Of a stretch of 32,000 nucleotides of DNA, positions 1 through 28,785 are shown piece by piece. The notes beneath the pieces are model-generated. The model saw only the letters and a program-made list of their open reading frames with translations, ran no database searches and was not told the DNA's origin. This DNA comes from an archaeon (GTDB lineage Archaea; Asgardarchaeota; Thorarchaeia; Thorarchaeales; Thorarchaeaceae): assembly GCA_024275415.1 (NCBI GenBank), contig JAJRZD010000033.1:50551-82550 (forward strand), read 5' to 3'. Both the position numbers and the translations under genes were made by a program. Positions within the stretch are counted from its first letter, which is position 1, and every line of letters begins with the position of its first letter.

Positions 1-1
1 T

Positions 2-7124: not shown

Positions 7125-7139
7125 CAGCGGTCAGGCAAC

Positions 7140-8391: not shown

Positions 8392-8574
8392 CCTCTCCAT
8401 CAACCGACTCCGCATCCGTGTGGTATCTCTCAGATCCTTAATGGTTCCCGTAGGGACGTAGGAAGATCTCACAAATCCAGCTCTGAGCAGGACGACCAAC
8501 CAGACACAGTCCTTCAGGTCGGTTTTGTGCGATGACATGTCCTTGACCTGTCGGGCATAGTTTAATAGTTTCAT
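8392..8574 (-). mobile_element. IS110-family transposase remnant (fragment of the DEDD/RuvC-like domain)
   Basis: ARQVKDMSSHKTDLKDCVWLVVLLRAGFVRSSYVPTGTIKDLRDTTRMR matches the IS110 signature KTD..DA.WLA.LL..G.L..S.VP.....LR.L.R.R. The rest of the gene is absent or decayed. Confidence 0.8.
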
Positions 8575-8838
8575 TCCAGTCATGCTACGTGACCTCCTAG
8601 TTTTATCTAGGACTGTTGCCGGACTAACATTACAATTTTCAATACGTGTCCGCAACACAAATGGATAACTTCATCTGTTCGTTTCAGGTCATTTCTCACA
8701 CCGTCGTCCAGATGGCAGAGTCTACTCCAATCAGTCTAGTCTTGAAAGAGCATAGTATGGGAACGCACTCATGTTTTTTCACACGGGGCCCAGATGAAGG
8801 ATACTCTTATATTATCGAAAAGATTAACTAAACGAATT

Positions 8839-14039: not shown

Positions 14040-15056
14040 ATGAAACTCTTAACAACTAATCAATGGGACTTGCCCGGATTCGGAGCAGGTACGAAACATC
14101 GTAGAATCGAAGGATATCTTCATGAGATGCGTATCTTCGTCAATAGTGTCTGTAACCACAGATGCAGGTTCCCAGAGGGGCAGACTTGGTGCCACTCACG
14201 AGATGGGATGGTAGGTTTGGGAAGAGACATGGATTCGGAGAGTTGGCTATACCTTCTGGAAGGACTGGATCGATGGAACATGCATTCATTGAAGATTGCA
14301 GGAATGGAACCAACGTTACACCCAGATCTACCAAGTCTGATATCTGCAACTCAGTCTTTCAATATGAAAGATATTAGTATGACCACAAACGGGTTCCGGT
14401 TGGTACCCATACTACCTAATCTTGTCGAAGCTGGATTGAACCGACTAACTGTATCACTACATACTTTGAATCCATCTATCTTCAAGACCATAACTGGCGG
14501 AAGCGTCTTTCCAGTCCGTGAAGCTCTAGATTTGTGCGCAGATTTTGGAATACCGACAAAGTTGAATGTAGTTCTTCTTCGTGGAGTTAATGATGACATT
14601 CGAAACCTTCTAGAATATGCATCAAGCCGCCAGTTTGAGATCAAATTATATACTCTTCTCTGGCAACCTCATTTCGAATCAGACTACAACCGATACTTCG
14701 TTTCATGGGATGAGGTGATTCAACCTCTATCTAATGATTGGAGAGGAATTGAACTGGTCGAATTCGTGAATTCTCAGCGGTATCGCTACACACTTGAAAC
14801 TGAGAATGGCATAAAGGTCACAACAAGTTGGTTTCAACACAAGACCAACAGCATATATAACATCTGCAGGAACTGCCCACTGAACTCTAGGTGTGAGGAG
14901 GGATTCATGGGTTACGGGTTTGAAACAGACTCAAATTTCTTAGTGAATCCGTGCTATCTTCGACCAGAACTACGGTTTGACCTGAAACCTTTCTTGGAAC
15001 GGAAGTATTGTAGTGTAGAGAAACGACTTGATCGGATTGCAAATGATGGAGGGTGA
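14040..15056 (+). CDS. MoaA-related radical SAM enzyme with an atypical CX3CX8C motif and a four-Cys C-terminal cluster motif
   Basis: MRIFVNSVCNHRCRFPEGQTWCH, KIAGMEP, ISMTTNG, AGLNRLTVSLHTL.P..F..ITG, KLNVVLLRGVND and C-terminal CRNCPLNSRCEEG...NPC all align with the MoaA scaffold. No other moa/moe genes are nearby. Confidence 0.85.
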   Translation: MKLLTTNQWDLPGFGAGTKHRRIEGYLHEMRIFVNSVCNHRCRFPEGQTWCHSRDGMVGLGRDMDSESWLYLLEGLDRWNMHSLKIAGMEPTLHPDLPSLISATQSFNMKDISMTTNGFRLVPILPNLVEAGLNRLTVSLHTLNPSIFKTITGGSVFPVREALDLCADFGIPTKLNVVLLRGVNDDIRNLLEYASSRQFEIKLYTLLWQPHFESDYNRYFVSWDEVIQPLSNDWRGIELVEFVNSQRYRYTLETENGIKVTTSWFQHKTNSIYNICRNCPLNSRCEEGFMGYGFETDSNFLVNPCYLRPELRFDLKPFLERKYCSVEKRLDRIANDGG

Positions 15057-15059
15057 AAG

Positions 15060-18000
15060 GTGAAACGCAAGAAAAGGAAGGAGTTCGACAAAGAAGATAT
15101 TCTCCAACTGCTCCGAGACCTCAATATTGATAGAGTAATAGAAGATGCTCATCTGCTTTTGGATTTGAATCGTGATGGGAAGTGGTCCATTCGACTTCTT
15201 TTGCTCTCCTACCTTCTGAAAGAGAATGAACTACAGACAATACGTGAGTTTGTGGATTTCGGATTCTCAAAGATTGCAGATGACTCGTTGTTTCAAAGGT
15301 TCAATTTCAAGAAAATTAGAAGTACTCTAGCCATGCCCGAGAAATGGTTTACAGATGAAGGTGGTAGTGAATACATTCCTGGTTCTGGCAATGCAAGAAG
15401 TATCCTGAGCAAAAGAACAGATCTGTTTACAAAGATTGGCTCAAGGTACGTACTAAATGAGAAAAATGGTAGCAGGGATCTTGCACTCGTTCTCTTCATA
15501 TTCCTGTTGAAAGCGCGCGGAATCGATTTAGAAAAGATTCCTGATGCAGATGAAGTGGAGAGTGGGTCAGTTTCAGAAGGAACATATCGGCAACTATTCT
15601 TGATTGATTCCACCGGCAAGCCAACGTCGCTTTCTCACAAAGTTCAAGACATTGTAGAAGACTGTCCAGTACTAATCCAAGCGGAGGAATTTGATAAAGA
15701 TACGAAGAACATTCTTCCACACATTCAGAGAACAATACTCGACTTGCTTCAGCGACATCACAGTGCATTCACAAACCCCCCGCATAAGAGGAAATTAGCA
15801 ATAATCTGTAAACCGATCTACAGCTTACCTGCTAGAAGCAAGAATGAGGAGTTCACTATCAACAGCTTGCTGACTCCTTCAACAAGCGAGAAGGAGCATT
15901 CCATGAATGGTGTGGATGGAGAAAGCATTGAAGATTCAGATACTAATCCGGTTCTGCTTACAGGTAGTGCGGGAAGTGGAAAGTCATTCTGGATGATCAA
16001 ACTAGCTTTGGACTTGTGGAATCATTCATTTAAGTCAGGCAGCCCTAACAGGAGTGACAGGGTTATCCCACTCTTCATAGGACTTGGATCTGTTTTTCTT
16101 GACAAGACTAAACACGGTGAATCTCTGGTATATGGCGAAGAAAAAGCTACACTATGGCACATAGATGAACCACCTGACGAGATTCCTCGTAGATCTTTGA
16201 TAGACCGGTTTCTAGGAGCAATGCTCAAGAAATCACCTCAATATATCCGGAAAATTCTCGACCGAGTAGATTGGCACGAGGTCAAGTTCGTATTTCTCTT
16301 AGATGGGTGGGATGAACTTGGTCGTCGAGAGAGGAAAGAGATGATACGGCTCATCAAGTCAAGTCCGATAAACCAACTACCTTGCATCATTAGTTCCAGA
16401 AACAAGGACAGCGATTTTGATAGTATAGAAATTGAGCATATCCGATTAGAGAAACCCACCATTGACAATTGTAAGGACTATCTGCGTTCTCGTGGAATGG
16501 AAGAAGAAGTTCTCGACAAGGTCAAAGAATGGTTCCCCGATCCCTCTCCTCTTGACTTGGAGATTTTAGGTCGAGTACCAAAGATGGAGGAGATCTCCAG
16601 TGGTCGCGTTCCCGTTTATAGAACGTGGATTGAACTGCAAATCTTGTCCTCTATCCGGAGCGATATTCTACAAGATTTACGGTCACGTTCTCAGATTGAC
16701 ACATTTATAGAAGGCGAGTTTTTCCGTGACAAATCGTTGAAGGACTGGATTCGAAGCCGAAACAATTCTCATTCGGTCTGGAGATGCCTGCCATATATTG
16801 CATATCTGCAGAAAGATGGACTAAATACATCTCTTAGTTATGATCAAGTCGTTCAAGATAATCCTCTATTGAAGGAGTTCCTAGAGAAGCGTTATGGCTC
16901 TGGAGATTCACCTCATCCTGAAATTTCAAGGAATAACTTGGTTCCGTATTTGTCCGCTGAGTATGTTTTCAGATCATATCTATCGGGAAAATACCCTCCT
17001 ATTAGAGGGGATTTACAAACCTTCAGATTCCTAGTTGAGATATTGTCATATGATTTAGAGCGGCGACATGATAGAGAATTAATTCCGAGAAGTGCCGAGT
17101 TGACGCCACTACAAACTGCTGCAATGATATGTCTTCAGGGAGAATCTGAAGCCTATACTAATGGAGCAAGAATTCGCCCATTTATCGCTGAGGGAAAGTC
17201 AGGGTCAACTCCTTTCTATACTGCGTTGTTTGATGGTTTTGTTAAGTATTGGAGCCAAACATCAACTTGCTGTGTACGAAGGAATATTCTTGATGCATTC
17301 ACGAAGTTAATTCGCACGTTTATAGTTGAAGAGAAAGAAGGAAACCCCGCACAGTTCATTGTCCCGTTATTAGAGATCGAACAGGCATTTGATTCTAATA
17401 CCTTCTCCAAGTTGATAACAGAAGAACCTGATACGTCTGTAGACCTAGAAATTTGTGATTCGTCAGGATACACACTCTATTATCTCGATTATGAGAAAGT
17501 CCAGGATTGGCTCTTACAGCTTTCCGTTAAGAAGCCTTGGTTGACTCCTTGGACTGTGAGAGTAGTAAAGCAAGAGAACCGATTGAAAATTCGGGATATA
17601 ATTGATGAAGCCCCTGATGAGTGGATGATTTACGAAGTTCTGAACTACGTTACGTCCGGATTCACATCAATTGACTCTGAATGGTTTGAGAGCATCCATA
17701 GAAATGCACTACGCCTTGAATCCGACTTGTTATGGAATTCCATTGCAATTGGCCTTCAAATGTCGCGCGGAGAGATAGACGACTACAGATTCTCGAAAAT
17801 ACTTGAAGTTCTGGGCTCTCCATGCGTTGAGGAAAGATGGAAGTTTGGATTGATAGTCAATTTGGGGAAAGTCAGACTGCCTGAACGATACACAAGAGAG
17901 GTATGGCGATCTACTGAGCAAGGGAAAATCGGTTTAAAATATGGCATAGCACTTTGCCTATCCCAGGAGCTACCAGATATAGCCATAGATGATATCCTTG

Positions 18001-19772
18001 ATGCAATTCGGGATAGCGAAGGATCCGGGTGGCTGAGGCTGCTATTACCGGGGATTCTCCAAGAGGAATATGATGAAGAAGAAATCAATAGTCGTTTTGT
18101 TCAGCTCAGTTATACCATCGTGCAGGCAATCACACGAGTTAGGGTTGTTCCATGGGATGAAGCCCGTTTAAATAGTTTAATTGATATGTGGTGGGATTCA
18201 AACCTCAAGACATTGGAAGATGCACTATCTCTAATCAAGACAATATCGAAGAAACGGAGAGAGAACCAGCTAGCTATTCTGGATTGGAGAGAAACTGAGG
18301 CTCTCAAACGACTAGTAGTGTGGTTAGGGAGTTCGCGGAAATCCACCAAGAAGAAGTTCTTCAGGAAACTCATAGAATCTGAGATTGATATGACGGATTT
18401 CTCAGTAAGAGAACATCTATATCCCATCTATCAGGAAATCGATAACAGAACAGATCTTGATGAACTCCTTGTTGCGCGTTATCCGCTTTACCATTGCAGT
18501 ATATCGATACTCCCCTTGTCAAGAGAGTCGTGGTTAACTCATATCGACAAAGTGGATCGTGAAGAACTCCTAGAAAGTAACTGGTTGATGGAGATATACC
18601 TCGAAGCCGGAAACGTGGCAACCATCGATGGAGCTATTAGCCTTCTCAATGAAATACAGAATCAAAGTGATTATCTAATAGAAACCTTCGACTCATTAGT
18701 AAAATGGGTTCTTCAAAGGCCCACTGATGAGATTGCACCGTTTATACTTCAACTCCTTAAGGAGAATCCTGCAACTACAAGGATGGGTTATTGGCGAAGA
18801 GTAAAGGAGAGTGGCCTGATTAAAGCTCTTGTTCCTGTTTCGAAAAACAGTCCTGAAGTGTATACTCGAATTCTGGAGATTGCAAAGGAAATACCAGGTC
18901 TTCAGATCGATAAACGTTCTGAGCTTCAATTCCTTTTCGAGGCACTAGCACCTGATGATCAAATGAGAGTTGTTCGGGCTCACTTTGAGAGATTTGTGGG
19001 GAAGGAGTCCTTCTTTTTCGGAAAGACCCTAGAAGAGATAATCCTGATTCATGGTAATAAGAACGATGTAGATTCACTCGTTCGCTCATTAAATAAAGAA
19101 CCAAGAAACCTTGGGAACATTTGGTCGAAGAATCCGGAACGGGCAACGGAAATCTCAAAGAGGCTATCCAATCCCTTCTCGTGTCTTCTATATGAAATTG
19201 ATATGATTGGAGGTTGGGCTGAGTACAAGAGGGAATTAGAGAAGAATCCAAAGAAGGTTGAGAAAGATCTACTGCTATTCCTCAAGAATGATTGGATCCA
19301 TAAAGGCTATGAATTCCTTGTCGCAGGAGGAGTCTTGAGAGAGGTTGCATTGAAGCATTGGAAGCGGATATTTCAAAGTGACAAGGCCTCGAGAAACGAG
19401 ATTGAGTTATACCTTGGTGCTCTCTTTGAACCCGATGATGATGAGATTGTTGAGTATGTAGCAAGCGAAGTCGATGAAATCCACAGAAACCTCAAAGAAA
19501 GGGAAAAGGAAATAGCAAAGGCATATCGTACCCCTTGGTATTCTTGGAATATCCCTGTTCTTGATAAAATTCAAAATAGACACGGTTATACTGGTCTTAA
19601 ACGATTGCTTATGAAAGTAAAAGATCAATATTCAATTGAAGGTGTAATGACATATCTGGTGAAATCGGCGAAAAAAGAAGGAATTCCAAAATCTGAGATT
19701 GTATCACTGGACGAATACCTCAAGCTAAGCAGGGCGATCAGATGGCATTTGATGAAGGAATACGAAGACTAA
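15060..19772 (+). CDS. Large STAND NTPase of the NACHT class (NLR/Avs-like architecture)
   Basis: Walker A VLLTGSAGSGKS (about 15963), Walker B FVFLLDGWDEL (about 16300), sensor CIISSR and a GxP-equivalent PSPLDLEIL. An ~290-aa N-terminal region and an ~1000-aa helical C-terminal region flank the NTPase. The GTG start lies 3 nt after the radical SAM stop, with GGAGGGTGA upstream. Confidence 0.88.
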   Translation: MKRKKRKEFDKEDILQLLRDLNIDRVIEDAHLLLDLNRDGKWSIRLLLLSYLLKENELQTIREFVDFGFSKIADDSLFQRFNFKKIRSTLAMPEKWFTDEGGSEYIPGSGNARSILSKRTDLFTKIGSRYVLNEKNGSRDLALVLFIFLLKARGIDLEKIPDADEVESGSVSEGTYRQLFLIDSTGKPTSLSHKVQDIVEDCPVLIQAEEFDKDTKNILPHIQRTILDLLQRHHSAFTNPPHKRKLAIICKPIYSLPARSKNEEFTINSLLTPSTSEKEHSMNGVDGESIEDSDTNPVLLTGSAGSGKSFWMIKLALDLWNHSFKSGSPNRSDRVIPLFIGLGSVFLDKTKHGESLVYGEEKATLWHIDEPPDEIPRRSLIDRFLGAMLKKSPQYIRKILDRVDWHEVKFVFLLDGWDELGRRERKEMIRLIKSSPINQLPCIISSRNKDSDFDSIEIEHIRLEKPTIDNCKDYLRSRGMEEEVLDKVKEWFPDPSPLDLEILGRVPKMEEISSGRVPVYRTWIELQILSSIRSDILQDLRSRSQIDTFIEGEFFRDKSLKDWIRSRNNSHSVWRCLPYIAYLQKDGLNTSLSYDQVVQDNPLLKEFLEKRYGSGDSPHPEISRNNLVPYLSAEYVFRSYLSGKYPPIRGDLQTFRFLVEILSYDLERRHDRELIPRSAELTPLQTAAMICLQGESEAYTNGARIRPFIAEGKSGSTPFYTALFDGFVKYWSQTSTCCVRRNILDAFTKLIRTFIVEEKEGNPAQFIVPLLEIEQAFDSNTFSKLITEEPDTSVDLEICDSSGYTLYYLDYEKVQDWLLQLSVKKPWLTPWTVRVVKQENRLKIRDIIDEAPDEWMIYEVLNYVTSGFTSIDSEWFESIHRNALRLESDLLWNSIAIGLQMSRGEIDDYRFSKILEVLGSPCVEERWKFGLIVNLGKVRLPERYTREVWRSTEQGKIGLKYGIALCLSQELPDIAIDDILDAIRDSEGSGWLRLLLPGILQEEYDEEEINSRFVQLSYTIVQAITRVRVVPWDEARLNSLIDMWWDSNLKTLEDALSLIKTISKKRRENQLAILDWRETEALKRLVVWLGSSRKSTKKKFFRKLIESEIDMTDFSVREHLYPIYQEIDNRTDLDELLVARYPLYHCSISILPLSRESWLTHIDKVDREELLESNWLMEIYLEAGNVATIDGAISLLNEIQNQSDYLIETFDSLVKWVLQRPTDEIAPFILQLLKENPATTRMGYWRRVKESGLIKALVPVSKNSPEVYTRILEIAKEIPGLQIDKRSELQFLFEALAPDDQMRVVRAHFERFVGKESFFFGKTLEEIILIHGNKNDVDSLVRSLNKEPRNLGNIWSKNPERATEISKRLSNPFSCLLYEIDMIGGWAEYKRELEKNPKKVEKDLLLFLKNDWIHKGYEFLVAGGVLREVALKHWKRIFQSDKASRNEIELYLGALFEPDDDEIVEYVASEVDEIHRNLKEREKEIAKAYRTPWYSWNIPVLDKIQNRHGYTGLKRLLMKVKDQYSIEGVMTYLVKSAKKEGIPKSEIVSLDEYLKLSRAIRWHLMKEYED

Positions 19773-19908
19773 TCTGCCTTTGATGAGTCCTTGTTGAATA
19801 ACTGAACCCGGAATTTGCAGATGGTCGATAGATTGAAGAAACGGTATGCTTTGTACAAATCACAATGTTACCGAACCAAGGGGGATAATAGCCACTTCAC
19901 AAATGGAT

Positions 19909-20012
19909 ATAATCATCTGGGTTGCCAGCATTATTCTGAGAACCTGTCTGACACGTTTCATCTCTCTATCGTCTGCTTCTGCAACTTGCTCCACCGCTCT
20001 GGGCTGATCAAG
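19909..20012. repeat. Direct repeat copy A: detached 3' end of the mazF-like gene (partner at 24367-24470)
   Basis: 96 of 104 positions are identical to 24367-24470, with a perfect 57-bp core (19920-19976 = 24378-24434). The minus strand reads LDQPRAVEQVAEADDREMKRVRQVLRIMLAT. Confidence 0.95.
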
Positions 20013-20110
20013 TACCATTAAGCCTACTTTTATCCCTCAAAAAGGCTAATATGTTCCGTAGCTAAGAATATAATGACCTAATAAGGAATCATACTGTTTA
20101 TGTAGAGGGA

Positions 20111-21591
20111 TTGATTACCATGGCTAGTATCTGGATGCTCTCAAAGGATGCAATGAGAGGAATGGACATAGTTGGTGCAATCTCTGAATTTCTTGACGAG
20201 TACCAAACAAAAGGACGTCCTACTTCCGAGTCCAGTGACCGCGTGCTATATGTTATAGAAAGACTCATCTTAGGTGCCAGAAGTTTCTTAGATTCTAATG
20301 TCAGAATTGACTCATTCTCGATGATGATTGCAGAGGCAGTACATACCGAGATGTCGAAGACACCAAATGAACTCATCTCAATCCTCGAAAGATGTGCAGA
20401 ACATATCCGTTCGCAGAGCGAGCACCTGAACGATTGCTTGGACATCCTACGCATCATCTCTAAGAATGTGATGCGAGTGACATCGAGGAGAGTGGATACA
20501 AGATCACTTGTCCTACATTAGTTGAAAAGCTGATTCATGAAACACGATCCAAGCTGAACAGGTTCAAGAATCAGACCGTTTCGATTCGTGGTATGCCCTA
20601 TTTTGAACCATTCTACAATTTCTCTATTTCCATGGTATCTAAGATATCAAGCTTTATCGATAGAGTGGAAAGAAGTTCGAATCCTTCAGATAGATTGACC
20701 CACATTTGGCTTTCTCAAGCATCACTCGACTGGCTTCTTATCCAGCATGGCTTCTTCAAGATGTCCTATCATGACTCCACAACAAACAAGTGGTGTGCAC
20801 TTCAAGGACTGGTCAAAACAGGTTCTGAGCTGTTTGAAATTGGCGCGCCAGTCCTTGGTACATTCTATAACACATATGGCTCCACTGGTACGTTCATTCT
20901 GAATAGGAGGATAGGCCAGCTATCTGGCGATGATTACTTTATGGTTATAACGGACGAACTGGATCCACCAATCTTTTGGCCGCTTGTGATTCATGAATTG
21001 GCTCATTGTTGGCTGAGTTCTCAGACAATTGTCGAGGAAATCAGCTCAAAAGTCCATTATAACAATGAGTCAAGTATTATAGAACGACGCGTCGAAGAAG
21101 CACTATGTGATGCAATTGCAACATCATTCATGGGACCTTCTTATGTTTACTCCTACATCAACCGTTTGTGGCACAGCTTTATGATGATGGATAGTTTCGA
21201 ATACCCCAAGAACTCTTTTCGTCTTGAGGTCATGATTAGAACTCTAGAACAAGCAAATTATGACGAAGTGGAGGATCTTAAAATCATAATTGAGGAAACC
21301 AGCACTGTAGACTGGGAGGATGAAGCAATTGTGGATTCTCTAGCACCAATTGAAGAGTTTGCAAAGCAATTGCCCTTCATTACTAAACCCAACTCTCTTG
21401 TAACAGATATAGAGAGTGTCAACGAGTTTGTGAATGCTCCACCAGCAAACCTACAGAAGCTCTTTCATGTGGGGTGGATGTTATTGAATACGTCAGACAT
21501 GAAAACATATTCTGATGAATTCAATAGCATTAACTCCACAATTCAGGAATCATTAGAACGGAACTATGCCACGTTCAATACCCAAACTTAG
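20111..21591 (+). pseudogene. HExxH (zincin-like) protein of about 490 aa split by a one-base frameshift near 20462; track ORFs 20111..20521 and 20593..21591 are one gene
   Basis: The frame of 20593 is open back to 20464 (ECDASDIEESGYKITCPTLVEKLIHETRSKLNRFKNQTVSIRGMPYF), and adding one A at 20462-3 joins both ORFs. Motifs WPLVIHELAHCWL and VEEALCDAIATSFMGPSY, plus YP.NSFRL. Confidence 0.7.
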
Positions 21592-23853
21592 CTCTCTGGC
21601 AATTCTATGAGCCATTCTAAGTGGTGCTGGGGTCGAATAACTTTTCCCCGGAGATCCCCAGTTGAGATACGATAATTTGAATACATCTTCAAACGCTTTG
21701 AATTGATTAACTGAACCAGTAATATGAATAAAACCAATAGTGATGGGCCTGGGAGTGCCATGTTCATATTCATCTGCACCAGCTGCACATAGAACCATAT
21801 TTGACTCATCTAGGATATAGTAGTTTCCAGAGTCTGGTCTCCAGATATCGGACTGCCTTCCACGATATATCCTGAAGGGAGTAGTTTCCCTAATAGTAAT
21901 AATAGCTGAATGAGCAATACCTGATTTCTTCACAACAAACTCAAAATCACTTCTTTCTTGATCATAGACACTACCATCCCGAAGATAGAGAAGTGATTTT
22001 ATATCAGGGACAAGTGCCTTAGCATCTTCTATGCACCTCGACAGACTATCTCTATCGATACTCTCCCCGACAGCAAGTTTTGTTTGACCAATTTGGTATT
22101 TCCCTATCTTGTCATATACTATCATCATTACCCAGTTCTCTGATTTAGCTCGCCCAACGTCTATTGCAATATAGCAATCATATGTAAGTTGAGAATCTAG
22201 AACCCACGGAATACAGTTCGCGCGGGTAAGCAATGATGCAGCATATCCAGCCAACGGAAAGGTTTTTTTCTGTTTCACAATTTTGTTAATAGTTCGTGTT
22301 GTTATACACTTTGCAGGCACCTTAAGGCGTCCGCAAATATTCGTAATATCATCATGAAGATTCGTGTTACCATCATCAATGATGGCCACAACGATTGCAT
22401 TTCTAGTATCGAAAGTGCGGGACTTCTGAAGTTGTTTTTCCATGTTTCTCATATTTGGTTCCAAGAGAGTTGGTTTCTGAGGAAGTCTGACTTTGAAGTT
22501 CCTGTCTGTGTATTTTACCAGTGAATCATAGAATGACAATGCTAAATCCCTGTTCCCAGAGGAGTACAGGTATGCCCTTTTGATAGGTGTGACTTGATAC
22601 AGCCCTCTCTTTATCTCATCTCTAATCCTCGAAGGTGAAACCGCATTTTGACTAGCCGCGACAAGTTTAGGCAATGGAATCCGATTGGATGAGGGGAATT
22701 CCAGCGGTGATTCAAATTCGATTTGGTACGGACCAAGTTTAAGAGCAGAAAACTCATACTCATCGAACAGATCCATTGTTTTCTCCCAGCGGGTTCGTGC
22801 TGTGTGCTCTGGGTCACGGCTTCCCGGATGAGCATTATCCGAATAATAGGTATGTTCAGCAGTTATCCTAGATGGGACATCCTGAAATCGTACATTCTTG
22901 TGAAGAAATTGGGGTGCAAATGCAAATTCCCCTCTTCGCAACCCCGGCTGATTCATATCCAACCAGTTTCTTGGTTTCCGGTCGCCATACTTTGTAATCA
23001 GGTAATCAGCAATAGATTGTTTCGCATCAGCAGGAATCTTACTAATCGGCCTTTCGTCTATCCCATCTATCCCCACATCCATTGGAGCTAGACTGTAGAA
23101 GAAATGAACACCCCTGAATGACTTTCCCAGTCGTTTCATTTCCCACTTTCTCAGGTTGATTTCCCGTCTGAGTGATTCTAATCCCGAGGCCTTGATATGT
23201 TCAAGATACGGGCGTGAGTCAATATATCTTGTTGCCACATCTAGAGAGAGTATAATTCTTCCGTCATTCAGCACATTATATCGATACCTAGGCCCCCTGA
23301 ACAGTGTAAGAGGCACTTGATAGTCATTTGTAAGATCGATTCCTACTACCGGGAAATACGTGTGTGTTCCTCCATTCCAGAGGACTCTTTTAGTGCTAGA
23401 TTCCTTGGTCTTATTGAGTAGTGCTGTTAGAGATTTGTGACCCGCTATTCCGTGCTCTAGATCAAGCTTTCCCACGTATATAGCTCTTGCAGAACCAACG
23501 GATACTTGCTCTTGGATAGGGTTGCGATTCAATAAACCAACAGCAAGGTTCTTTCCTCGTGCTGAATAGAATACAAATGGGGTTTTGTTATCCCATTGCA
23601 ATTTGCTTATGGTCTTCCCAACAAGACCGTATTTGTTCGCTCCAGAACCTACACCTTCGAGTTCGAAAGCATCGAGTCGTTGTGACACTTCATTGAATGA
23701 CAAGCTGCCTGTGAACACGTTTGAAACAATCGACCAGTTATCGCCAACCACGAATACTCCCTCCTGTTCTACTACGTCCTGCAAATTTTTTATATGTATG
23801 TATTGGATTGAGGATGTCAGCTTAAGGTGGGATGCAAGAAGAACAGCATTCAC
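21553..23853 (-). CDS. ago: Full-length (long) prokaryotic Argonaute with an intact DEDH catalytic tetrad
   Basis: 766 aa. L1 (IILSLDVATRY), PAZ (SIADYLITKYG...NQPGL...FAPQFL), MID (IVVAII...VPAKCI...LLTRANCIPWVL) and PIWI (YIAIDVG, GESID, YLRDG, GTPRPI, KLSYLNW, PAPLRMAHRIA). Confidence 0.95.
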   Translation of the reverse strand: MNAVLLASHLKLTSSIQYIHIKNLQDVVEQEGVFVVGDNWSIVSNVFTGSLSFNEVSQRLDAFELEGVGSGANKYGLVGKTISKLQWDNKTPFVFYSARGKNLAVGLLNRNPIQEQVSVGSARAIYVGKLDLEHGIAGHKSLTALLNKTKESSTKRVLWNGGTHTYFPVVGIDLTNDYQVPLTLFRGPRYRYNVLNDGRIILSLDVATRYIDSRPYLEHIKASGLESLRREINLRKWEMKRLGKSFRGVHFFYSLAPMDVGIDGIDERPISKIPADAKQSIADYLITKYGDRKPRNWLDMNQPGLRRGEFAFAPQFLHKNVRFQDVPSRITAEHTYYSDNAHPGSRDPEHTARTRWEKTMDLFDEYEFSALKLGPYQIEFESPLEFPSSNRIPLPKLVAASQNAVSPSRIRDEIKRGLYQVTPIKRAYLYSSGNRDLALSFYDSLVKYTDRNFKVRLPQKPTLLEPNMRNMEKQLQKSRTFDTRNAIVVAIIDDGNTNLHDDITNICGRLKVPAKCITTRTINKIVKQKKTFPLAGYAASLLTRANCIPWVLDSQLTYDCYIAIDVGRAKSENWVMMIVYDKIGKYQIGQTKLAVGESIDRDSLSRCIEDAKALVPDIKSLLYLRDGSVYDQERSDFEFVVKKSGIAHSAIITIRETTPFRIYRGRQSDIWRPDSGNYYILDESNMVLCAAGADEYEHGTPRPITIGFIHITGSVNQFKAFEDVFKLSYLNWGSPGKSYSTPAPLRMAHRIARELSLGIERGIVPF

Positions 23854-24366
23854 TGCGATCGGGGAATCATGTTAGACTGAATGAAAGAAGCCCTGAGAGT
23901 TCTCTTGTACTCAATTCGGTTCTAGACCAAATCTTGCTTGGTGGCAGCCATCTTCCGTCCCGTTTAACAAACGCTTCTAATACTTCCCCTTTTGGAATGC
24001 CCTAGAACTTCATATTTACAGAATCCTGAGGTTTGGATCAGGGGTTGTGGTTATTCAAGCATTAGGTGAGTGGGACAAGTACCAGCACCAAAACCATTGC
24101 AATCATTGCATCCATCACTGTCAGACGCTCCACTTGTTGATAACCAGCCAATGTTATAGATTATCAGATTTCCTATTCACATGTTGAATCCTGCAATTTC
24201 TTCCATGTCATTCAAATTATTCCACAGAGCCGAAGTTGTGCAATTTATAGCATCACAGTCGGTTATGATGGTATCAAGTAACTCATTGAAACACGAGAAT
24301 AATGGGATGCTGGCATTCGTGGCAGATATGCACCTGATACAGATTCTCATTAACCCTACAAATGGG

Positions 24367-24470
24367 ATAATCATCTAGGTTGCCAGCATTATTCTGAGAA
24401 CCTGTCTGACACGTTTCATCTCTCTATCGTCTGCCTCTGCAACTTGCTCTACTGCTCGGGACTGGTCGAG
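24367..24470. repeat. Direct repeat copy B: 3' end of the intact mazF-like gene (partner at 19909-20012)
   Basis: See copy A. This copy carries the TAG stop where copy A has CAG. Confidence 0.95.
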
Positions 24471-24728
24471 CGCTCTTATCTGGTGACAGAGGATGAACGA
24501 GTCGTTCTTCAGTTTCCCTTTCTTTTTTACAGGTATCTCAGTCCAGAAATTCTTCTGTGATGAGGTGAGTGGCACTATAACAACGATTCCTGATGGCCCC
24601 TTTACACCGGCCCGTGTGGATGGATTTGCAACCACTAGACAGGGTCTAACTTTGTTGGTTTCACGACCCCTTGTTGGATCAAGGTCAAAGTAGGCAATAT
24701 CGCCTTGCTGGAGATGAGATGAACTCAT
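24375..24728 (-). CDS. mazF: PemK/MazF-family mRNA interferase toxin
   Basis: QGDIAYFDLDPTRGRETNKVRPCLVV, IVVIVPLTS and SFILCHQIRALD; the catalytic RP and PLTS motifs are retained. Confidence 0.93.
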   Translation of the reverse strand: MSSSHLQQGDIAYFDLDPTRGRETNKVRPCLVVANPSTRAGVKGPSGIVVIVPLTSSQKNFWTEIPVKKKGKLKNDSFILCHQIRALDQSRAVEQVAEADDREMKRVRQVLRIMLAT

Positions 24729-24738
24729 TGACCCGAGA

Positions 24739-25539
24739 TCACTCCAGCTTTTTCAAATAGTCATCTAGCCCCATCTCTGCTAAAGCGCTGTCCTCCTCAT
24801 GAACTGGCACGGCAATGCTGAGTGGTTCACTGACATCGAGTTCAGTGTCTAGCGATTCATCGACCTGAATCAGGATGTCCAAAGTCCAATCACGCAACAG
24901 CTGTTCCATCTGCGCGATCTGGGCCGCGTTTATCTCATCCTCATAGCGAACAAGAAACATAGTCAGCATGACCAACGTTATGAATGATCCCATGTTGCAT
25001 GTAAAGACGATAGACTGGATCATCTTGTGCAATGTTGGGTCAGTTTCAACAAGTATCTCAGACGGGTATTGCAATTCAGAATCATGTGCATATGAAGCCA
25101 TTATCTTGCTTCCCATGGCATGCGTGATGAGATCTGGATCGATTGTGATATCTGACATAACAATGTTGTTGAGCTTGCTCTCCATAAGACGAAAGAATGC
25201 CATCATCGTGTTCATCGTCAGACCGAAATTGGATGCCAGAACAGGACCGTATTTCTGCTCTAGCAAGAACTGTATCTTTTGTTCTCGAATGGAACTATAG
25301 TAAGACTCCAGAACATCAAATGTTCCAGATGCCTGTTCAAGGGCAGTATCCAGGTTTCTTAGAACATGCTCTATCCTATGTGACATTAGTTCTACAGTCA
25401 ACTGCTTGATATTTCGCCCAATATTGCCTACGAGCAGATTTTCAGGCATTCTCGGAGATAAGCAGAACTCATCCTTGTTAGCAATCCCGACAGGCATTAT
25501 CGGAAGAATCTGAATCATTGTAGCAACTCCCACAGTCAT
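24739..25539 (-). CDS. Putative antitoxin/partner of MazF (266 aa, unusually large)
   Basis: Lies 10 nt upstream of mazF on the same strand. The acidic C-terminal tail EEDSALAEMGLDDYLKKLE resembles toxin-binding tails of MazF antitoxins; the rest is helical and unrecognised. Confidence 0.55.
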   Translation of the reverse strand: MTVGVATMIQILPIMPVGIANKDEFCLSPRMPENLLVGNIGRNIKQLTVELMSHRIEHVLRNLDTALEQASGTFDVLESYYSSIREQKIQFLLEQKYGPVLASNFGLTMNTMMAFFRLMESKLNNIVMSDITIDPDLITHAMGSKIMASYAHDSELQYPSEILVETDPTLHKMIQSIVFTCNMGSFITLVMLTMFLVRYEDEINAAQIAQMEQLLRDWTLDILIQVDESLDTELDVSEPLSIAVPVHEEDSALAEMGLDDYLKKLE

Positions 25540-25607
25540 AGTAAACGGTCAATTCCTAATATACATACTCCGTCTTGTGCACATTCCCTGGCTGGACGAG
25601 AATCATA

Positions 25608-25802
25608 TCAACAAGTGTAATAATCGGTTTGGCTGTTAGGAAACGGTCGTATCGCATCAGCGTCCTCGAGATACAACTCTAGGGCTTCCTTGAGGTTTGC
25701 AAGAGCTTCTTCTATCGTCTTTCTCTGACTTACCACATCCACCTCAGGAGCAAGAGCCACGTACAAACTTCCTTCCCGAGTTACAACTGCTGTGAACAGC
25801 AT
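25608..25802 (-). CDS. hicB: HicB/UPF0150-family antitoxin-like protein (orphan, short)
   Basis: MLFTAVVTREGSLYVALAPEVDVVSQRKTIEEALANLKEALELYLED matches the HicB N-terminal RNase H-like fold. The conserved SQG is SQR here, and no hicA is adjacent. Confidence 0.8.
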   Translation of the reverse strand: MLFTAVVTREGSLYVALAPEVDVVSQRKTIEEALANLKEALELYLEDADAIRPFPNSQTDYYTC

Positions 25803-25906
25803 CCATATCAGCACCACTGTCACTACAATTCCTATTAACCTTTTTCACTCGAAACTCATTGACAGAGCAACTGCGGAATGCCCTGGCCATTCTCTGGGCA
25901 GGAGCC

Positions 25907-26040
25907 CTGTAGAAAAAATCTACTGGTTCACAATTGTTTGCTGAGAATCGTGAGCCATTCTCCTTCGGGCTGTCTGAAACGTGACAGGACCGAGTTCGGG
26001 TCTTGCTGTTTTCCTCTGCCACGTTCGAATTTTTCTACAG
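25907..26040. mobile_element. 134-bp MITE with 14-bp terminal inverted repeats and a 5-bp target-site duplication (GAGCC)
   Basis: The left end CTGTAGAAAAAATC and the reverse complement of the right end CTGTAGAAAAATTC match at 13/14. GAGCC flanks both sides (25902-25906 and 26041-26045). There is no transposase inside. Confidence 0.85.
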
Positions 26041-26116
26041 GAGCCCTGTGATCCCTCATTAGGAAACATTACCAATAACACATTTATACTCTGATAGTGT
26101 TTGAATGTTAGGGGTT

Positions 26117-27172
26117 ATGAGTTTGGCAGAAGAGGGACTTGCTGACAAATGGATTGACAAAATCAGTCAACTGGTTCTTGATGCGTGTGACCAATTTGAT
26201 GAACTTCAGCGTAATGTGAAGAATGTTCGCCTACAGTTCAAAATGCCGGCGAAACACCACAGTTCATTCTCATTTGCATTTGTCGACGGTGGCTCTGGTT
26301 ATGTTGATCTTGCTGGCGGATCCATCTATTTTATCCGTGCAGCTGGGGCTTTCTTCAAAAATCCCGATAAGCCAATATGGGAGTCTGATGTCGGTGCAGG
26401 GTTCACAATTCTATCTCGAAATGTTGATCGATTTGTCGGAATTGAAAGGGACATCTTGGAGATACAGACAGCAATCGAACTGTTACAGTACAAGCCAGAC
26501 ATGATAGTAATGGATAATTCTCTTGCATCATACGCAGGTATGGGCGTTCCATACTCCATTTTGCATCGCTTTCAAGACCCCCGACCTGATGGTAGTCCCG
26601 AGTTCCAATACTTCAACCGATTCGTCACATTAATGAAACGATTCGATGCGCTCATCACAGAGTGTTTGCTAAATGACATCCTTCTGGTAGGTATAACGAA
26701 GGATCCAAGGTCTAGGGGTTACGCAAAGAATCTGCAATTGGGGAATAGTGTTATGGACATCACTGCTGTTTCTCTGATTGCAGATGGACAGGTCGGATTC
26801 ACGCCAGAGTTTGACTCGCAATACATTAGAATTGATAGAATTGAGGAATATCTCAAAAAGCATAAGATCCTCACTGATAATAGAGGGGATTTCATGACTT
26901 GTTTTTGCATTCTCTCTCCAAAAGCTAATCCCTTCAAGATTGACTATCTCAAATCACAAAAAAATCAGGCTCGGGAAATCCGGGAAATGATAGTTTCCCT
27001 ACATGATGGAAGTGGATACCTTCTGCCATCTCATATTGTGCACGATCATGCCACAATATCCTCAGAACTAGCTGAGGGGCTTACACAACTTGTCTTGAAG
27101 AGGACAGCTGAGCGGAACATGAGAACAGCTGAAACAATCCTTAGAGCGCAAAGAAGGAGTAGATTCGGATGA
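26117..27172 (+). CDS. nurA: NurA 5'-3' nuclease
   Basis: FAFVDGGSG (first catalytic Asp), IVMDNSL (second Asp), LVGITKD and GYLLPSHIVHDHA. First gene of the herA-mre11-rad50 operon. Start may be 26105 or 26117; TTTATA at 26083 favours 26117. Confidence 0.88.
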   Translation: MSLAEEGLADKWIDKISQLVLDACDQFDELQRNVKNVRLQFKMPAKHHSSFSFAFVDGGSGYVDLAGGSIYFIRAAGAFFKNPDKPIWESDVGAGFTILSRNVDRFVGIERDILEIQTAIELLQYKPDMIVMDNSLASYAGMGVPYSILHRFQDPRPDGSPEFQYFNRFVTLMKRFDALITECLLNDILLVGITKDPRSRGYAKNLQLGNSVMDITAVSLIADGQVGFTPEFDSQYIRIDRIEEYLKKHKILTDNRGDFMTCFCILSPKANPFKIDYLKSQKNQAREIREMIVSLHDGSGYLLPSHIVHDHATISSELAEGLTQLVLKRTAERNMRTAETILRAQRRSRFG

Positions 27173-28785
27173 GCAACAAAGAACTAGTAGGCAATCTGAT
27201 AGGAATCACTAACCCAGTCGAACTAGTCGTTAGGATAAGACCTGACATTATTCGGAAAAACCCTCTCGAGCTTGGAGAACATGTGGTCATCGAATATCAA
27301 AGTGCGGACATGGACAAAGATGTGTTGGGGAGGGTATCTGAAATCCATCTTGAGAACTTGAACATGCCATCGACTCTATTGAATTCCCCTCAGGATTTTG
27401 AGGCTTTGGCAAGGCTCGGTGATCTCTCAGATGGAGAGGTATTGACCGCACAGGTGACAGTCATTGGGTATCTCACAGAGAAGAACAAGCTGGAGATCCC
27501 TCGTTACGCACCTCCTCCAGGCGCGAATGTCTACCGTGCACCGACTGATATACTGAACAGGGCTTTTGGTCAAGGACACTGTAGAATCGGCTCTTTGAGA
27601 GCAAATCAAGAAGTCGAGGTCAAGGTGAATGTCAACGAGCTAGTCAGACGTCACTTCGCTGTTCTTGCGATAACCGGTGGTGGAAAAGGGAACACCATAG
27701 CTGTGTTAGTCAAGCAGATGATTGCAATTGGGGGTACCATCATTATTATCGATCCCCATAGCGAATACTCCACAATGCGTCGTGATGTTCAGGGGCGTTT
27801 AATCACATTCTCTACAGACACAGACTTGGAGAATGGATCTTATGGTCTCCGACTGAGATACAGTAGCCTTAGTTTCAGAGACCTCACAGACATTTTGAGG
27901 GTACCATCAAAGGCAGACCGGATGCGTGCTTTATTGAGGGATGCCTACAACATACTCGAGGGAACTAACTGGGATCTCGATGATCTCCGCAATGCTCTGA
28001 AGACGGCATCTGAGTCAGGAAAAGACCGTTCATCACAGTACTATTCGCTAATGGATAGGATTGAAAACGCGACCGAGTTTCTTGTTTTTGACAAGACTGA
28101 GGAAGTTCCTTTGGTGGGAGATGGACAATCAAAAGTTGGACTGCTAAACAAAGGTTTTGTGACAGTACTTGCACTTTCAGGGCTACCAGATGAGGTTCAA
28201 CAGGCAATAACCAAGACAGTAGCTACTAGGATATTCAAAGGCGGTATGTCTTGGAGGCATAATGATGATACTGCTACTCCAATCCCCGGGCCAGTACTAC
28301 TTATTGTCGAGGAGGCACACATCTTCGTGCCAGCAGGGGGAGGTTCTGCAGCAATGGCGATTCTCAAACGTATCGCCTCTGAGGGGAGGAAGTTCGGTGT
28401 TGGTCTTGGTCTGGTATCCCAGCGACCTGGAAAACTAGACTCTGACGTTCTCTCGCAATGTAACAGTATGATTGTCCTGAAAATAGTCAACCCCTATGAC
28501 CAGAACAACATCGAAAAATCTGCTGAAGCACTTAGTAAGGATCTCATGAAGGAGCTTCCTTCTTTGAATGTTGGGGAAGCCGTTGTCTTTGGGTCTGCAT
28601 TCAACCTTCCTACCGTTGTCAAAGTAGACAAATACGAAGGGACGCTCGGTGGTTCTGATATAGATGTTGTTGATAACTGGAATCAAACATATTCAAATAT
28701 AGGTACTACACCGGCACAGGACTACGATGGCGGAAGCGAGGGTTTCGAGGAGGTTGATTGGGATGAGCACGCAAGAGGTAATTAA
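27169..28785 (+). CDS. herA: HerA bipolar DNA helicase/ATPase
   Basis: N-terminal HAS barrel, RHFAVLAITGGGKGNT, IIDPHSEY, Walker B IVEEAH, EGRKFG and SQRP.KLDSDVLSQC. Overlaps nurA by 4 nt (ATGA). Confidence 0.95.
   Translation: MSNKELVGNLIGITNPVELVVRIRPDIIRKNPLELGEHVVIEYQSADMDKDVLGRVSEIHLENLNMPSTLLNSPQDFEALARLGDLSDGEVLTAQVTVIGYLTEKNKLEIPRYAPPPGANVYRAPTDILNRAFGQGHCRIGSLRANQEVEVKVNVNELVRRHFAVLAITGGGKGNTIAVLVKQMIAIGGTIIIIDPHSEYSTMRRDVQGRLITFSTDTDLENGSYGLRLRYSSLSFRDLTDILRVPSKADRMRALLRDAYNILEGTNWDLDDLRNALKTASESGKDRSSQYYSLMDRIENATEFLVFDKTEEVPLVGDGQSKVGLLNKGFVTVLALSGLPDEVQQAITKTVATRIFKGGMSWRHNDDTATPIPGPVLLIVEEAHIFVPAGGGSAAMAILKRIASEGRKFGVGLGLVSQRPGKLDSDVLSQCNSMIVLKIVNPYDQNNIEKSAEALSKDLMKELPSLNVGEAVVFGSAFNLPTVVKVDKYEGTLGGSDIDVVDNWNQTYSNIGTTPAQDYDGGSEGFEEVDWDEHARGN

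What the first reader, a model, noticed from the sequence alone, without database searches (positions are those of the whole stretch)
19909..24470. Argonaute + HExxH cassette bounded by a direct repeat of the mazF 3' end (integration into a toxin gene)
Seen: 19909-20012 and 24367-24470 match at 96/104 nt with a 57-bp perfect core. The layout is intact mazF, then a 4.4-kb cassette, then a detached copy of mazF's 3' end, which is the attL/attR geometry of elements that integrate into a gene's 3' end. Six of the eight differences are synonymous in the MazF frame (CTC/CTT, GAC/GAT, CGA/AGA, GCA/GCG, GTA/GTG, GAG/GAA), one is Ser/Pro and one is TAG/CAG. The second copy therefore derives from a separately evolving mazF allele rather than a fresh duplication. 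No integrase is present. Inference: a TA toxin gene acts as a recombination or landing site through which an Argonaute module was acquired and could be excised, giving cassette-like shuffling of defence genes.
Basis: partly seen in the sequence, partly recalled or inferred. Interest (0 to 1): 0.8.

Follow-up and report, generated by a model that had tools for sequence, protein, structure and literature searches.

The report
Displaced mazF gene end beside Argonaute cassette
In an Asgard (Thorarchaeota) defence island, a dead spare copy of the last 31 codons of a MazF toxin gene lies 4.4 kb from the intact gene with an Argonaute gene trio in between; it is a real recombination scar from a second mazF allele, but nothing shows that mazF is a dedicated integration site.

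Summary
The repeat is real: 19909-20012 and 24367-24470 match at 96/104 nt with a 57-nt perfect core, and these are the only two copies in the 3.5-Mb genome. Copy B is the end of an intact PemK/MazF gene. Copy A is a stub covering codons 87-117.

Six of seven coding differences are synonymous (P about 0.001), so the stub comes from a separately evolving functional allele. All six lie in codons 87-98, so the repeat is a mosaic.

The cargo, pAgo-HExxH-p136, is a conserved trio found in at least 8 other Thorarchaeota loci. None of those has mazF pieces or flanking repeats. Ten other loci with close mazF orthologues have no stub, and the 82-kb contig has no integrase.

In two other genomes mazF sits directly next to the aminotransferase gene that is 18 kb away here, so the space after mazF is a variable slot.

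The DNA between mazF and pAgo holds a gene fragment and part of a small mobile repeat (MITE).

Best reading: a 3'-end displacement scar from homology-guided recombination between two mazF alleles, not an att site. This scan has logged the same "gene end - cassette - gene end" footprint in many other genomes. Interest is moderate to low.

The parts
19896..20012 (-). mazF stub (copy A): codons 87-117 of a second mazF allele, stop mutated to CAG, plus about 19 nt of post-stop homology with one indel. The strict 104-nt repeat is 19909-20012.
19920..19976 (-). 57-nt perfect core in copy A. Its partner in copy B is 24378-24434. It encodes MazF residues 99-117, the C-terminal helix.
24375..24728 (-). 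Intact PemK/MazF-family toxin gene (117 aa). Copy B of the repeat, 24367-24470, covers its last 31 sense codons, the stop and 8 nt beyond.
24739..25539 (-). p266: conserved upstream partner of this MazF clade, no Pfam family, predicted to bind MazF. Candidate antitoxin.
21553..23853 (-). Long prokaryotic Argonaute. Homologues start about 33 residues later, so the true start is probably near 23770.
20593..21591 (+). HExxH protein (332 aa), always found with this pAgo clade. No clear fold match.
20111..20521 (+). p136: small protein, third constant member of the trio.
20030..20110 (+). Upstream region of p136 that is conserved between trio copies. It begins only about 18-28 nt from the inner edge of the stub.
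23882..24124 (-). Pseudogene fragment: the first 83 residues of a protein like the 227-aa ORF on contig C37 of the same genome (48% identity), with an in-frame TAG, cut off before pAgo.
24179..24232 (+). Truncated 3' part of a roughly 135-nt MITE-like dispersed repeat, whose right inverted terminus is at 24217-24227. The next 80-90 nt (24223-24313) are 88% identical to DNA beside an ORF on C37 that I read by eye as an IS5-like transposase.
25907..26040 (+). Full copy of the same MITE-like repeat, with perfect 11-nt inverted termini, lying between the HicB-like gene and nurA.
14040..19772 (+). Neighbouring radical-SAM + NACHT/STAND two-gene module. Its homology to other genomes ends at 19765, so the stub does not belong to it.

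Best explanation
The stub is the displaced or truncated 3' end of a second, once-functional mazF allele. It is a scar of general recombination between two mazF alleles, homology-guided at one end and illegitimate at the other.

Inferred sequence of events: this lineage carried a p266-mazF toxin-antitoxin pair at a variable slot upstream of an aminotransferase gene. DNA carrying another p266-mazF allele recombined with it. Either the pAgo-HExxH-p136 trio or the rSAM-NACHT side came with that DNA. One join used mazF or flanking homology. The other join was illegitimate and fell between codons 86 and 87.

The result is one whole mazF, the trio, and then an orphan 3' end that has since lost its stop codon and gained S90P. 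The perfect 57-nt core between diverged arms marks a crossover or a later gene-conversion tract between the two copies.

No dedicated recombinase or att site is needed. The two direct repeats could still delete the 4.4 kb by homologous recombination. A crossover within the core would leave a mazF that reads through the lost stop for 19 extra codons.

Shown: the repeat, its coding-type divergence and mosaic pattern, the conserved trio, the variable slot, and the absence of a recombinase. Inferred: the order of events and the recombination route.
For: - Repeat and sharp inner edge.
- Six of 7 coding differences are synonymous (P 0.0009), all within codons 87-98 (P 0.002). A 57-nt perfect run is unlikely under uniform divergence (P 0.011).
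- Both damaging changes are on the stub. S90 is kept in all ten orthologues, and the stop is lost only in the stub.
- The trio is a self-contained unit whose homology spans about 20030-23764. The rSAM-NACHT unit ends at 19765. So the stub lies between modules and belongs to neither.
- p266-mazF is missing from the six same-genus genomes but present in other genera, so it is an accessory, horizontally moving pair. Homology explains why two alleles of a rare gene ended up 4.4 kb apart in the same orientation.
- G019 and L068 have mazF directly followed by the aminotransferase gene. Same-genus genomes keep the GH38-p290-p591-AT synteny with unrelated genes beyond it.
- No recombinase lies in the cassette or on the contig.
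- Gene fragments and a MITE end next to mazF show repeated illegitimate events at this spot.
- Published precedents: displacement by homology-facilitated illegitimate recombination (PMC5361080) and integrase-free insertion of defence genes with long direct repeats (PMC2853133).
Against: - There is only one instance. No conspecific genome or reads were available, so neither the empty site nor the donor allele was seen.
- A single one-ended recombination predicts even divergence along the repeat. The perfect core therefore needs an extra step (gene conversion, or heteroduplex repair at a crossover).
- A core flanked by diverged arms with mostly synonymous changes is also what element-borne substitute gene ends look like (e14 or phage 21 in icd, from my own knowledge).
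- A distant p266-like/mazF-like pair also sits just upstream of the trio, in the same orientation, in G016. That hints at a non-random mazF-pAgo link which this explanation does not require.
Confidence: 0.5

Rival explanations
1. Leftover of an unrelated second p266-mazF module. Two paralogous toxin-antitoxin modules once lay in tandem. An illegitimate insertion or deletion that brought the trio removed everything from codon 84 of the wHTH-like gene to codon 86 of the second mazF. The mazF homology played no part in the acquisition, and later gene conversion made the 57-nt core identical.
For: - The trio is flanked on both sides by truncated genes: a 5' fragment of a C37_227-like gene at 23882-24124 and the 3' mazF stub. 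This suits a plain illegitimate replacement.
- The island holds other decayed pieces, namely an IS110 fragment at 8320-8658 and a truncated MITE.
- The mosaic pattern needs gene conversion under the best explanation as well.
Against: - None of about 13 loci with close orthologues shows tandem p266-mazF modules.
- The pair is absent from all six congeners, so a long in-place divergence of two copies is not parsimonious.
- The only other p266-like gene in this genome is 22% identical and on another contig.
Confidence: 0.3
2. True attL/attR. A 4.4-kb integrase-less cassette carrying a substitute mazF 3' end integrated by site-specific recombination within the 57-nt core. It would be mobilised in trans and could excise as a circle.
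For: - The geometry is right: intact gene, cargo, then partial 3' copy in the same orientation.
- The repeat has a perfect core flanked by diverged arms, with P 0.011 for the run.
- Arm differences are synonymous, as in phage-borne substitute gene ends (own knowledge: e14 and phage 21 at icd).
- Tyrosine recombinase genes exist elsewhere in the genome, on C119 and C116.
Against: - There is no recombinase in the cassette or on the 82.5-kb contig.
- The core has no further copy in the genome.
- No other mazF locus has a stub.
- The three trio loci scanned for repeats have none, and no trio locus has a mazF piece apart from the full-length mazF-like gene beside the trio in G016.
- The trio has no conserved terminal motifs.
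- The supposed element would carry a truncated gene and half a MITE at its mazF-proximal end.
- Neither the trio nor mazF was found on viral contigs.
Confidence: 0.12
3. Assembly chimera. Two co-existing strains with different mazF alleles and neighbours were joined through the shared 57-nt core, so the two copies do not lie on one chromosome.
For: - The genome is a metagenome-assembled genome of 127 contigs with 4.5% contamination.
- Contigs of relatives often break in or near this mazF (G043 at codon 85, L056 at residue 96, L057 at residue 70).
Against: - The stub has its own junction, with allele-specific bases followed by an abrupt switch into the trio's upstream region at 20012/20013. That junction must exist in real DNA.
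- A switch of strain inside the core would still leave a strain that carries a stub.
- Reads were not available to test this.
Confidence: 0.05

Closest known systems
C-terminal (3'-end) displacement with orphan gene ends at Rhs, CDI and T6SS effector-immunity loci, attributed to homology-facilitated illegitimate recombination (Kirchberger et al. 2017, PMC5361080; Jackson et al. 2009 as cited there)
   Same: - An intact gene is followed by newly placed genes and then an orphaned 3' piece of an older allele in the same orientation.
- No integrase is involved.
- The incoming DNA is anchored by homology to a conserved gene.
   Different: - In those loci the displaced end is the variable toxin tip and the cargo is its immunity gene, and orphans often form arrays that recur between strains.
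- Here the displaced end is the conserved C-terminal helix of a small MazF toxin, the cargo is an unrelated Argonaute trio, and only one orphan in one genome is seen.
Insertion with long target duplication of restriction-modification genes (Nobusato et al. 2000 as cited in Furuta et al. 2010, PMC2853133)
   Same: - Defence genes with no mobility gene are bracketed by direct repeats longer than 30 bp that are unique in the genome and often overlap the 3' end of a gene.
   Different: - Those repeats are near-identical duplications of one target, shown by an empty site in a sister strain.
- Here one arm differs at 7 of 36 nt, almost all synonymous, so the copies come from two alleles rather than a fresh duplication.
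- No empty site in a sister strain is available.
- Furuta et al. report that no archaeal case passed their screen.
Integrative elements that insert into the 3' end of a protein gene and bring a substitute end (e14 and phage 21 at icd of E. coli; cited from my own knowledge, not read here)
   Same: - The gene stays intact with an element-derived end.
- The old end is left at the far side.
- The two ends differ mainly by synonymous changes around an identical core.
   Different: - Those elements encode their own integrase, use the same att site in many strains and excise as circles.
- None of this is seen here.
Defence islands and integration hotspots (for example the E. coli defence island repertoire, PMC10121019; seen only as a title and abstract)
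   Same: - Unrelated defence modules (McrBC, methylase, rSAM-NACHT, pAgo trio, toxin-antitoxin pair) are stacked at one variable slot between conserved genes.
   Different: - The E. coli study maps where defence systems cluster in that pan-genome; I saw only its title and abstract, so how those hotspots are defined was not checked.
- Here the slot is next to an accessory toxin-antitoxin pair in an Asgard archaeon, and the only mobility traces are IS and MITE fragments.

Membership tests
attL/attR of an integrative element in a gene 3' end | Direct repeats bracket the element, with the intact target gene at one end and a partial 3' copy at the other | tested here: met
attL/attR of an integrative element in a gene 3' end | The element encodes, or lies next to, a site-specific recombinase | tested here: not met
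   Pfam and PADLOC give no recombinase for any cassette ORF. PF00589 matches lie only on contigs C119, C116 and C43, not on C9. Serine recombinases were not searched for separately.
attL/attR of an integrative element in a gene 3' end | The same att core is reused, at other sites in the genome or with other cargo or empty sites in relatives | tested here: not met
   There are only two copies in the genome. No stub is found among the 86 family genomes or in the further metagenomic mazF loci. No conspecific genome was available.
attL/attR of an integrative element in a gene 3' end | Excised circle or precise empty-site junctions | not testable with these tools
   Reads from the source metagenome are needed.
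3'-end displacement by homology-guided recombination (Rhs/CDI/T6SS type) | The orphan 3' fragment lies downstream of the intact gene, in the same orientation, and derives from a different functional allele | tested here: met
   6 of 7 coding changes are synonymous (P 0.0009)
3'-end displacement by homology-guided recombination (Rhs/CDI/T6SS type) | Recurrence: arrays of orphans, or the same footprint in related strains | tested here: not met
   There is a single orphan, and none at ten other mazF loci. The scan's notes report the same footprint at other genes in other genomes; I did not check those.
3'-end displacement by homology-guided recombination (Rhs/CDI/T6SS type) | No dedicated recombinase; one homologous and one illegitimate junction | tested here: inconclusive
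   No recombinase is present. The inner junction is abrupt, with no more than a few nt of microhomology. The homologous junction cannot be located without the parental alleles.
Insertion with long target duplication | Defence genes without mobility genes, flanked by a direct repeat longer than 30 bp that is unique in the genome | tested here: met
Insertion with long target duplication | Both repeats descend from one target sequence, being near-identical and aligning to a single copy in an empty-site genome | tested here: not met
   One arm differs at 7 of 36 nt with a coding-type pattern. No sister-strain empty site is available.
PemK/MazF type II toxin | Match to the family profile above the curated cut-off | tested here: met
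   PF02452, E 3.3e-24, 85.6 bits against a cut-off of 23.1, covering the full profile
PemK/MazF type II toxin | Co-transcribed cognate antitoxin that binds the toxin | tested here: inconclusive
   - p266 lies 10 nt upstream and is conserved with this MazF clade.
- The complex model supports binding but does not show it. The score is 0.79 against a best control of 0.01. That mark was reached by 58 of 80 solved complexes and by 2 of 110 mismatched pairs.
- The runs agree in at least 55% of their contacts, and the partner's pLDDT is at least 77.
- p266 has no known family. MazE-MazF complexes are solved, so some memory effect on the MazF side is possible.
- Toxicity and neutralisation were not tested.
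Long prokaryotic Argonaute | PIWI/MID core recognised by profiles and by solved Argonautes | tested here: met
   PADLOC pAgo 3.5e-43. CpAgo 9jh7 matches at 1.9e-10 over residues 480-755. More distant members of this pAgo clade carry precomputed Pfam PF02171.
Long prokaryotic Argonaute | Catalytic DEDX tetrad | not tested
   This rests on motif inspection only (AIDVG, GES, LRDGS, MAHRIA in the ORF). All four motifs are invariant among the four trio pAgos. No structure-based alignment was made.

The most novel reading that the evidence does not exclude
The mazF 3' end, through its 57-nt core, is a genuine capture site. A recombinase acting in trans would insert and excise integrase-less defence cassettes there, making a toxin-antitoxin gene an integron-like platform for swapping immune modules in Asgard archaea. 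The co-oriented mazF-like/pAgo adjacency in G016 would then be a second trace of this.

A weaker variant: the stub is expressed as a 52-residue peptide carrying the MazF helix that is predicted to contact p266, and so tunes the toxin-antitoxin balance.
Probability: 0.07. Interest if true: 0.75.

Novelty: new member of a known kind. Interest (0 to 1): 0.3.

Why it matters
How defence genes move between genomes without their own mobility enzymes is still poorly understood, and almost nothing is known for Asgard archaea. This locus gives one clean, dated-by-sequence example. Two alleles of an accessory toxin gene recombined, and a complete Argonaute module ended up between them, bracketed by repeats that could delete it again.

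It adds an archaeal case, with a toxin gene as the anchor, to the "displaced gene end" footprint known from Rhs and T6SS loci and from restriction-modification insertions. It does not establish a new mechanism.

Three by-products may matter more than the repeat itself:
- a conserved pAgo-HExxH-p136 trio;
- a 266-residue candidate antitoxin of no known family;
- a possible link between the trio and NurA-HerA-Mre11-Rad50-like operons.

Tried and rejected
- **More copies of the repeat or core in the genome:** none beyond the two.
- **Older, weaker mazF stubs elsewhere in the island:** a permissive tblastn of the window gave only noise. The apparent extension of the stub to codon 53 is stop-ridden BLAST padding.
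- **Stubs in relatives:** none in a profile search of 86 family genomes or in self-searches of ten mazF loci.
- **Flanking repeats around the trio in G001, G092 and G016:** only short chance matches.
- **Wider scans:** the metagenome scan with the mazF alignment gave only 3 short contigs. The genome-contig scan with the pAgo alignment gave only the three loci already found. Viral contigs gave no trio, no mazF and no core.
- **Exact-protein look-up of MazF:** not on record. The closest homologue in 5.8 billion proteins is 73% identical, so the stub's parent allele was not found.
- **The 65-aa ORF after mazF (24177-24374):** not conserved next to mazF in G013 or G019 (18-22% identity). Its DNA is instead MITE end plus a repeated flank.
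- **Rfam over 19500-26200:** no match at E up to 1.
- **HExxH protein:** the model has mean pLDDT 75. Foldseek against PDB gave nothing at E up to 0.001. VIA-align gave only generic helical matches of Z 8.1 or less, with E. coli BepA (M48 peptidase) at Z 7.4 over 168 residues. So it is neither identified as a peptidase nor excluded, and it showed no recombinase-like match.
- **G043's contig ending at mazF codon 85:** this is one codon from the breakpoint, but the contig is exactly 2500 nt long, no overlapping contig exists, and two other contigs end at residues 70 and 96. I treat it as coincidence.
- **Continuation of G016's mazF-like gene into the trio:** the gene is full length with one in-frame TAG and is not truncated by the trio.

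Full report
**1. The observation**

The two segments 19909-20012 and 24367-24470 align without gaps at 96/104 nt. Mismatches fall at repeat positions 11, 69, 84, 87, 92, 95, 99 and 102, which leaves a 57-nt perfect run. In the whole 3.5-Mb assembly (127 contigs; the window is C9:50551-82550 and ends at the contig end) these are the only two copies. The next best hits are noise at E above 1.

Copy B is the end of an intact 117-aa gene at 24375-24728 on the minus strand. That gene matches Pfam PemK_toxin end to end (E 3.3e-24). Copy A lies on the same strand and begins abruptly at codon 87. The apparent tblastn extension back to residue 53 is full of stops.

With one indel the similarity continues about 19 nt past the stop and then vanishes.

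**2. What the repeat's internal pattern says**

- Six of seven coding changes being synonymous is very unlikely for random change (P about 0.0009; 23% of random single-base changes here would be synonymous). So the two copies diverged while both were working genes.
- S90 is kept in all ten close orthologues, and the stop is lost only in copy A. Both damaging changes therefore sit on the stub, as expected for decay after truncation.
- The divergence is uneven. All six synonymous changes lie in codons 87-98 (P 0.002), giving 7 differences in 36 nt. Next comes 57 nt without any change (P 0.011 for such a run). Then come the stop change, an indel and a mismatch within the next 20 or so nt.
- The repeat is therefore a mosaic: a perfect core between diverged arms. 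That implies a crossover or a gene-conversion tract between two distinct alleles. It is not a fresh duplication.

**3. The organism and the island**

Named homologues of MazF and of the Argonaute are from Candidatus Thorarchaeota, an Asgard lineage.

G+C falls from about 50% (1-8000) to 40-45% from 8500 onward. Read along the + strand, the window carries:
- GH38, two unknown genes and a class I/II aminotransferase (AT, 4747-6078, minus strand);
- a DUF3782/PD-(D/E)XK protein;
- an IS110 fragment;
- McrBC;
- a DNA methylase;
- a radical-SAM gene plus a 1570-aa NACHT-like protein;
- the stub;
- p136, the HExxH protein and pAgo;
- mazF, p266 and a HicB-like gene;
- NurA-HerA-Mre11-Rad50.

**4. 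The toxin-antitoxin pair**

A 266-aa gene ends 10 nt before mazF. It has no Pfam or PADLOC family. It accompanies this MazF clade in G013, G019, G043 and several metagenomic contigs at 44-59% identity. More distant versions accompany distant MazF genes.

A complex prediction supports binding but does not show it. The score is 0.79 against a best control of 0.01. That mark was reached by 58 of 80 solved complexes and by 2 of 110 mismatched pairs. The runs agree in at least 55% of their contacts, and the partner's pLDDT is at least 77.

The predicted MazF surface includes residues 102-116, the helix encoded by the perfect core. p266 is therefore a candidate antitoxin of a new kind. Toxicity was not tested.

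The pair is accessory. No close orthologue was found in the six same-genus genomes searched (60-95% complete), but it occurs in three other genera.

**5. The cargo**

The 766-aa protein is a long pAgo (PADLOC 3.5e-43; CpAgo 1.9e-10).

pAgo, the HExxH protein and p136 occur together, in the same relative order and orientation, in every homologous locus examined: G001, G092, G016 and five metagenomic contigs, down to 41% pAgo identity. At the DNA level the shared unit spans about 20030 to 23764 of the window. The stub's inner edge (20012) is thus only 18-28 nt from the conserved upstream region of p136.

The neighbours differ in every case:
- a type IIG restriction-modification gene;
- a TnpB-like gene;
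- DUF488;
- UvrD/PD-(D/E)XK helicase-nucleases and a FokI-domain gene;
- Rad50-Mre11-HerA-NurA.

The three loci scanned for repeats (G001, G092, G016) have no flanking direct repeat, and none of the loci has a mazF piece.

There is one exception worth noting. In G016 a distant p266-like/mazF-like pair (25% and 35% identity) lies just upstream of pAgo in the same orientation. That mazF-like gene is full length with one in-frame TAG, and there is no stub.

The radical-SAM/NACHT pair is likewise a self-contained unit whose homology ends at 19765. The stub belongs to neither module.

**6. Empty sites and the slot**

In G019 and in contig L068, p266-mazF is followed within 0.3-0.6 kb by the aminotransferase gene, in the same orientation as here. 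In the window about 18 kb separate them.

Same-genus genomes keep GH38-p290-p591-AT, but beyond AT they carry unrelated housekeeping-type genes and no mazF.

Downstream of other mazF orthologues lie a nucleotidyltransferase, an ORF that by my reading of its sequence resembles NYN-domain proteins, or a 547-aa unknown.

The space after mazF is therefore variable. G042 and G043 have both genes, but on separate contigs.

**7. The DNA between mazF and pAgo**

The roughly 600 nt from 23770 to 24366 are not a clean element edge. They contain:
- the first 83 codons of a gene like the 227-aa ORF on contig C37 (48% identity, E 1e-13), with an in-frame TAG and no continuation;
- the right-hand third of a roughly 135-nt MITE-like repeat with termini CTGTRGAAAAA. 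It has at least 9 copies in the genome, including a full copy at 25907-26040;
- about 85 nt that recur next to an ORF on C37 that I read by eye as an IS5-like transposase; it was not searched against any family library.

So the trio is flanked by truncated genes on both sides.

**8. Recombinases**

No cassette ORF matches a recombinase. Pfam Phage_integrase matches lie only on C119, C116 and C43.

The HExxH protein could not be assigned to a fold. Foldseek gave nothing significant, and the best broad match of interest was BepA, an M48 peptidase, at Z 7.4.

**9. Interpretation**

Four points are established:
- the geometry;
- the origin of the stub in an independent functional allele;
- the mosaic pattern;
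- the location in a variable slot.

What is missing is everything that would mark a dedicated att site: a recombinase, reuse of the core, recurrence at other mazF loci, defined cassette ends, and excision products.

The closest described processes are:
- 3'-end displacement by homology-facilitated illegitimate recombination at Rhs, CDI and T6SS loci (PMC5361080);
- integrase-free insertion of defence genes with long direct repeats (PMC2853133). In that case the repeats come from one target, which is not so here.

I therefore read the stub as a scar of recombination between two mazF alleles that placed, or trapped, the Argonaute trio between them (confidence 0.5).

A tandem-paralogue remnant with later gene conversion (0.3), a true att site served in trans (0.12) and an assembly chimera (0.05) remain possible. 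Which module arrived last cannot be told.

The repeats could delete the trio by homologous recombination. A crossover in the core would give a mazF reading through CAG for 19 more codons (inference).

**10. Standing**

The scan's own notes list many "gene end - cassette - gene end" scars in other genomes, mostly with toxin-antitoxin pairs as the cargo (not checked by me). Here a toxin gene is the anchor and an Argonaute module the cargo, in an Asgard archaeon. That makes it a new member of a known kind, of moderate to low interest unless population data show reuse of the site.

Noticed in passing
window 24739-25539 (-), with L020, L021, L024, L057, L065, L067: p266 is a 250-275-aa protein of no known family. 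It always sits just upstream of this MazF clade and is predicted to bind MazF through MazF residues 58-66 and the C-terminal helix 102-116. The score was 0.79 against a best control of 0.01 (mark reached by 58 of 80 solved complexes and 2 of 110 mismatched pairs; runs agree in at least 55% of contacts; partner pLDDT at least 77). It may be a new antitoxin family in Asgard archaea.
   Followed up: partly
window 25907-26040 and 24179-24232; G000 contigs C37, C89, C30, C80, C106, C29, C114: A MITE-like dispersed repeat of about 135 nt with 11-nt inverted termini (CTGTRGAAAAA) has at least 9 copies in two subfamilies. Its termini resemble the end of the DNA beside a transposase-like ORF (IS5-like by eye) on C37. 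One full and one truncated copy, in the same orientation, bracket the HicB-like/p266/mazF block.
   Followed up: partly
window 23882-24124 (-): This is a pseudogene fragment. It covers the first 83 residues of a protein like the 227-aa ORF at G000:C37 (L094:1363-2046), has an in-frame TAG, and is cut off just before pAgo.
   Followed up: partly
window 26105-32000; L083 11893-17967; L085 11478-15121: The NurA-HerA-Mre11-Rad50 operon here has no close orthologue in five same-genus genomes (no NurA match at E 1e-30). A second HerA (31% identity) lies on C43. The pAgo trio also abuts a Rad50-Mre11-HerA-NurA operon in L083/L084, and genes with weak HerA-like and NurA-like matches in L085 (HerA-like only on the shorter L086). 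This may be an accessory end-resection module linked to this Argonaute clade.
   Followed up: partly
window 20111-23853; L062, L063, L064, L082-L086: pAgo, a 300-345-aa HExxH protein and a 132-139-aa protein form a constant trio across Thorarchaeota. The HExxH protein has invariant HExxHCWLS and EExxCD motifs and no convincing fold match.
   Followed up: partly
L024 (G043:C287) 2245-2500: This contig ends at mazF codon 85, one codon from the breakpoint seen in the window. The contig is exactly 2500 nt long and no overlapping contig was found, so this is probably coincidence.
   Followed up: yes
L034 (G042:C13) 2559-3317; L055 150-947; L056 2662-3459; L064 8312-8700: There are signs of decay or unusual decoding in relatives. 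G042 has a p266 orthologue with no detectable mazF after it. The p266 genes of L055 and L056 each carry one in-frame stop. G016's mazF-like gene carries one in-frame TAG.
   Followed up: no
window 14191-14274 (-), inside the radical-SAM gene: A 28-residue stretch is 46% identical to p266 residues 11-38 (tblastn E 4.5e-4 against the window), on the strand opposite the radical-SAM ORF. It is unexplained and may be chance.
   Followed up: no
window 6414-6701 (+): Imperfect tandem repeats with 21- and 33-nt spacing lie inside the DUF3782/PD-(D/E)XK gene (6039-7124).
   Followed up: no
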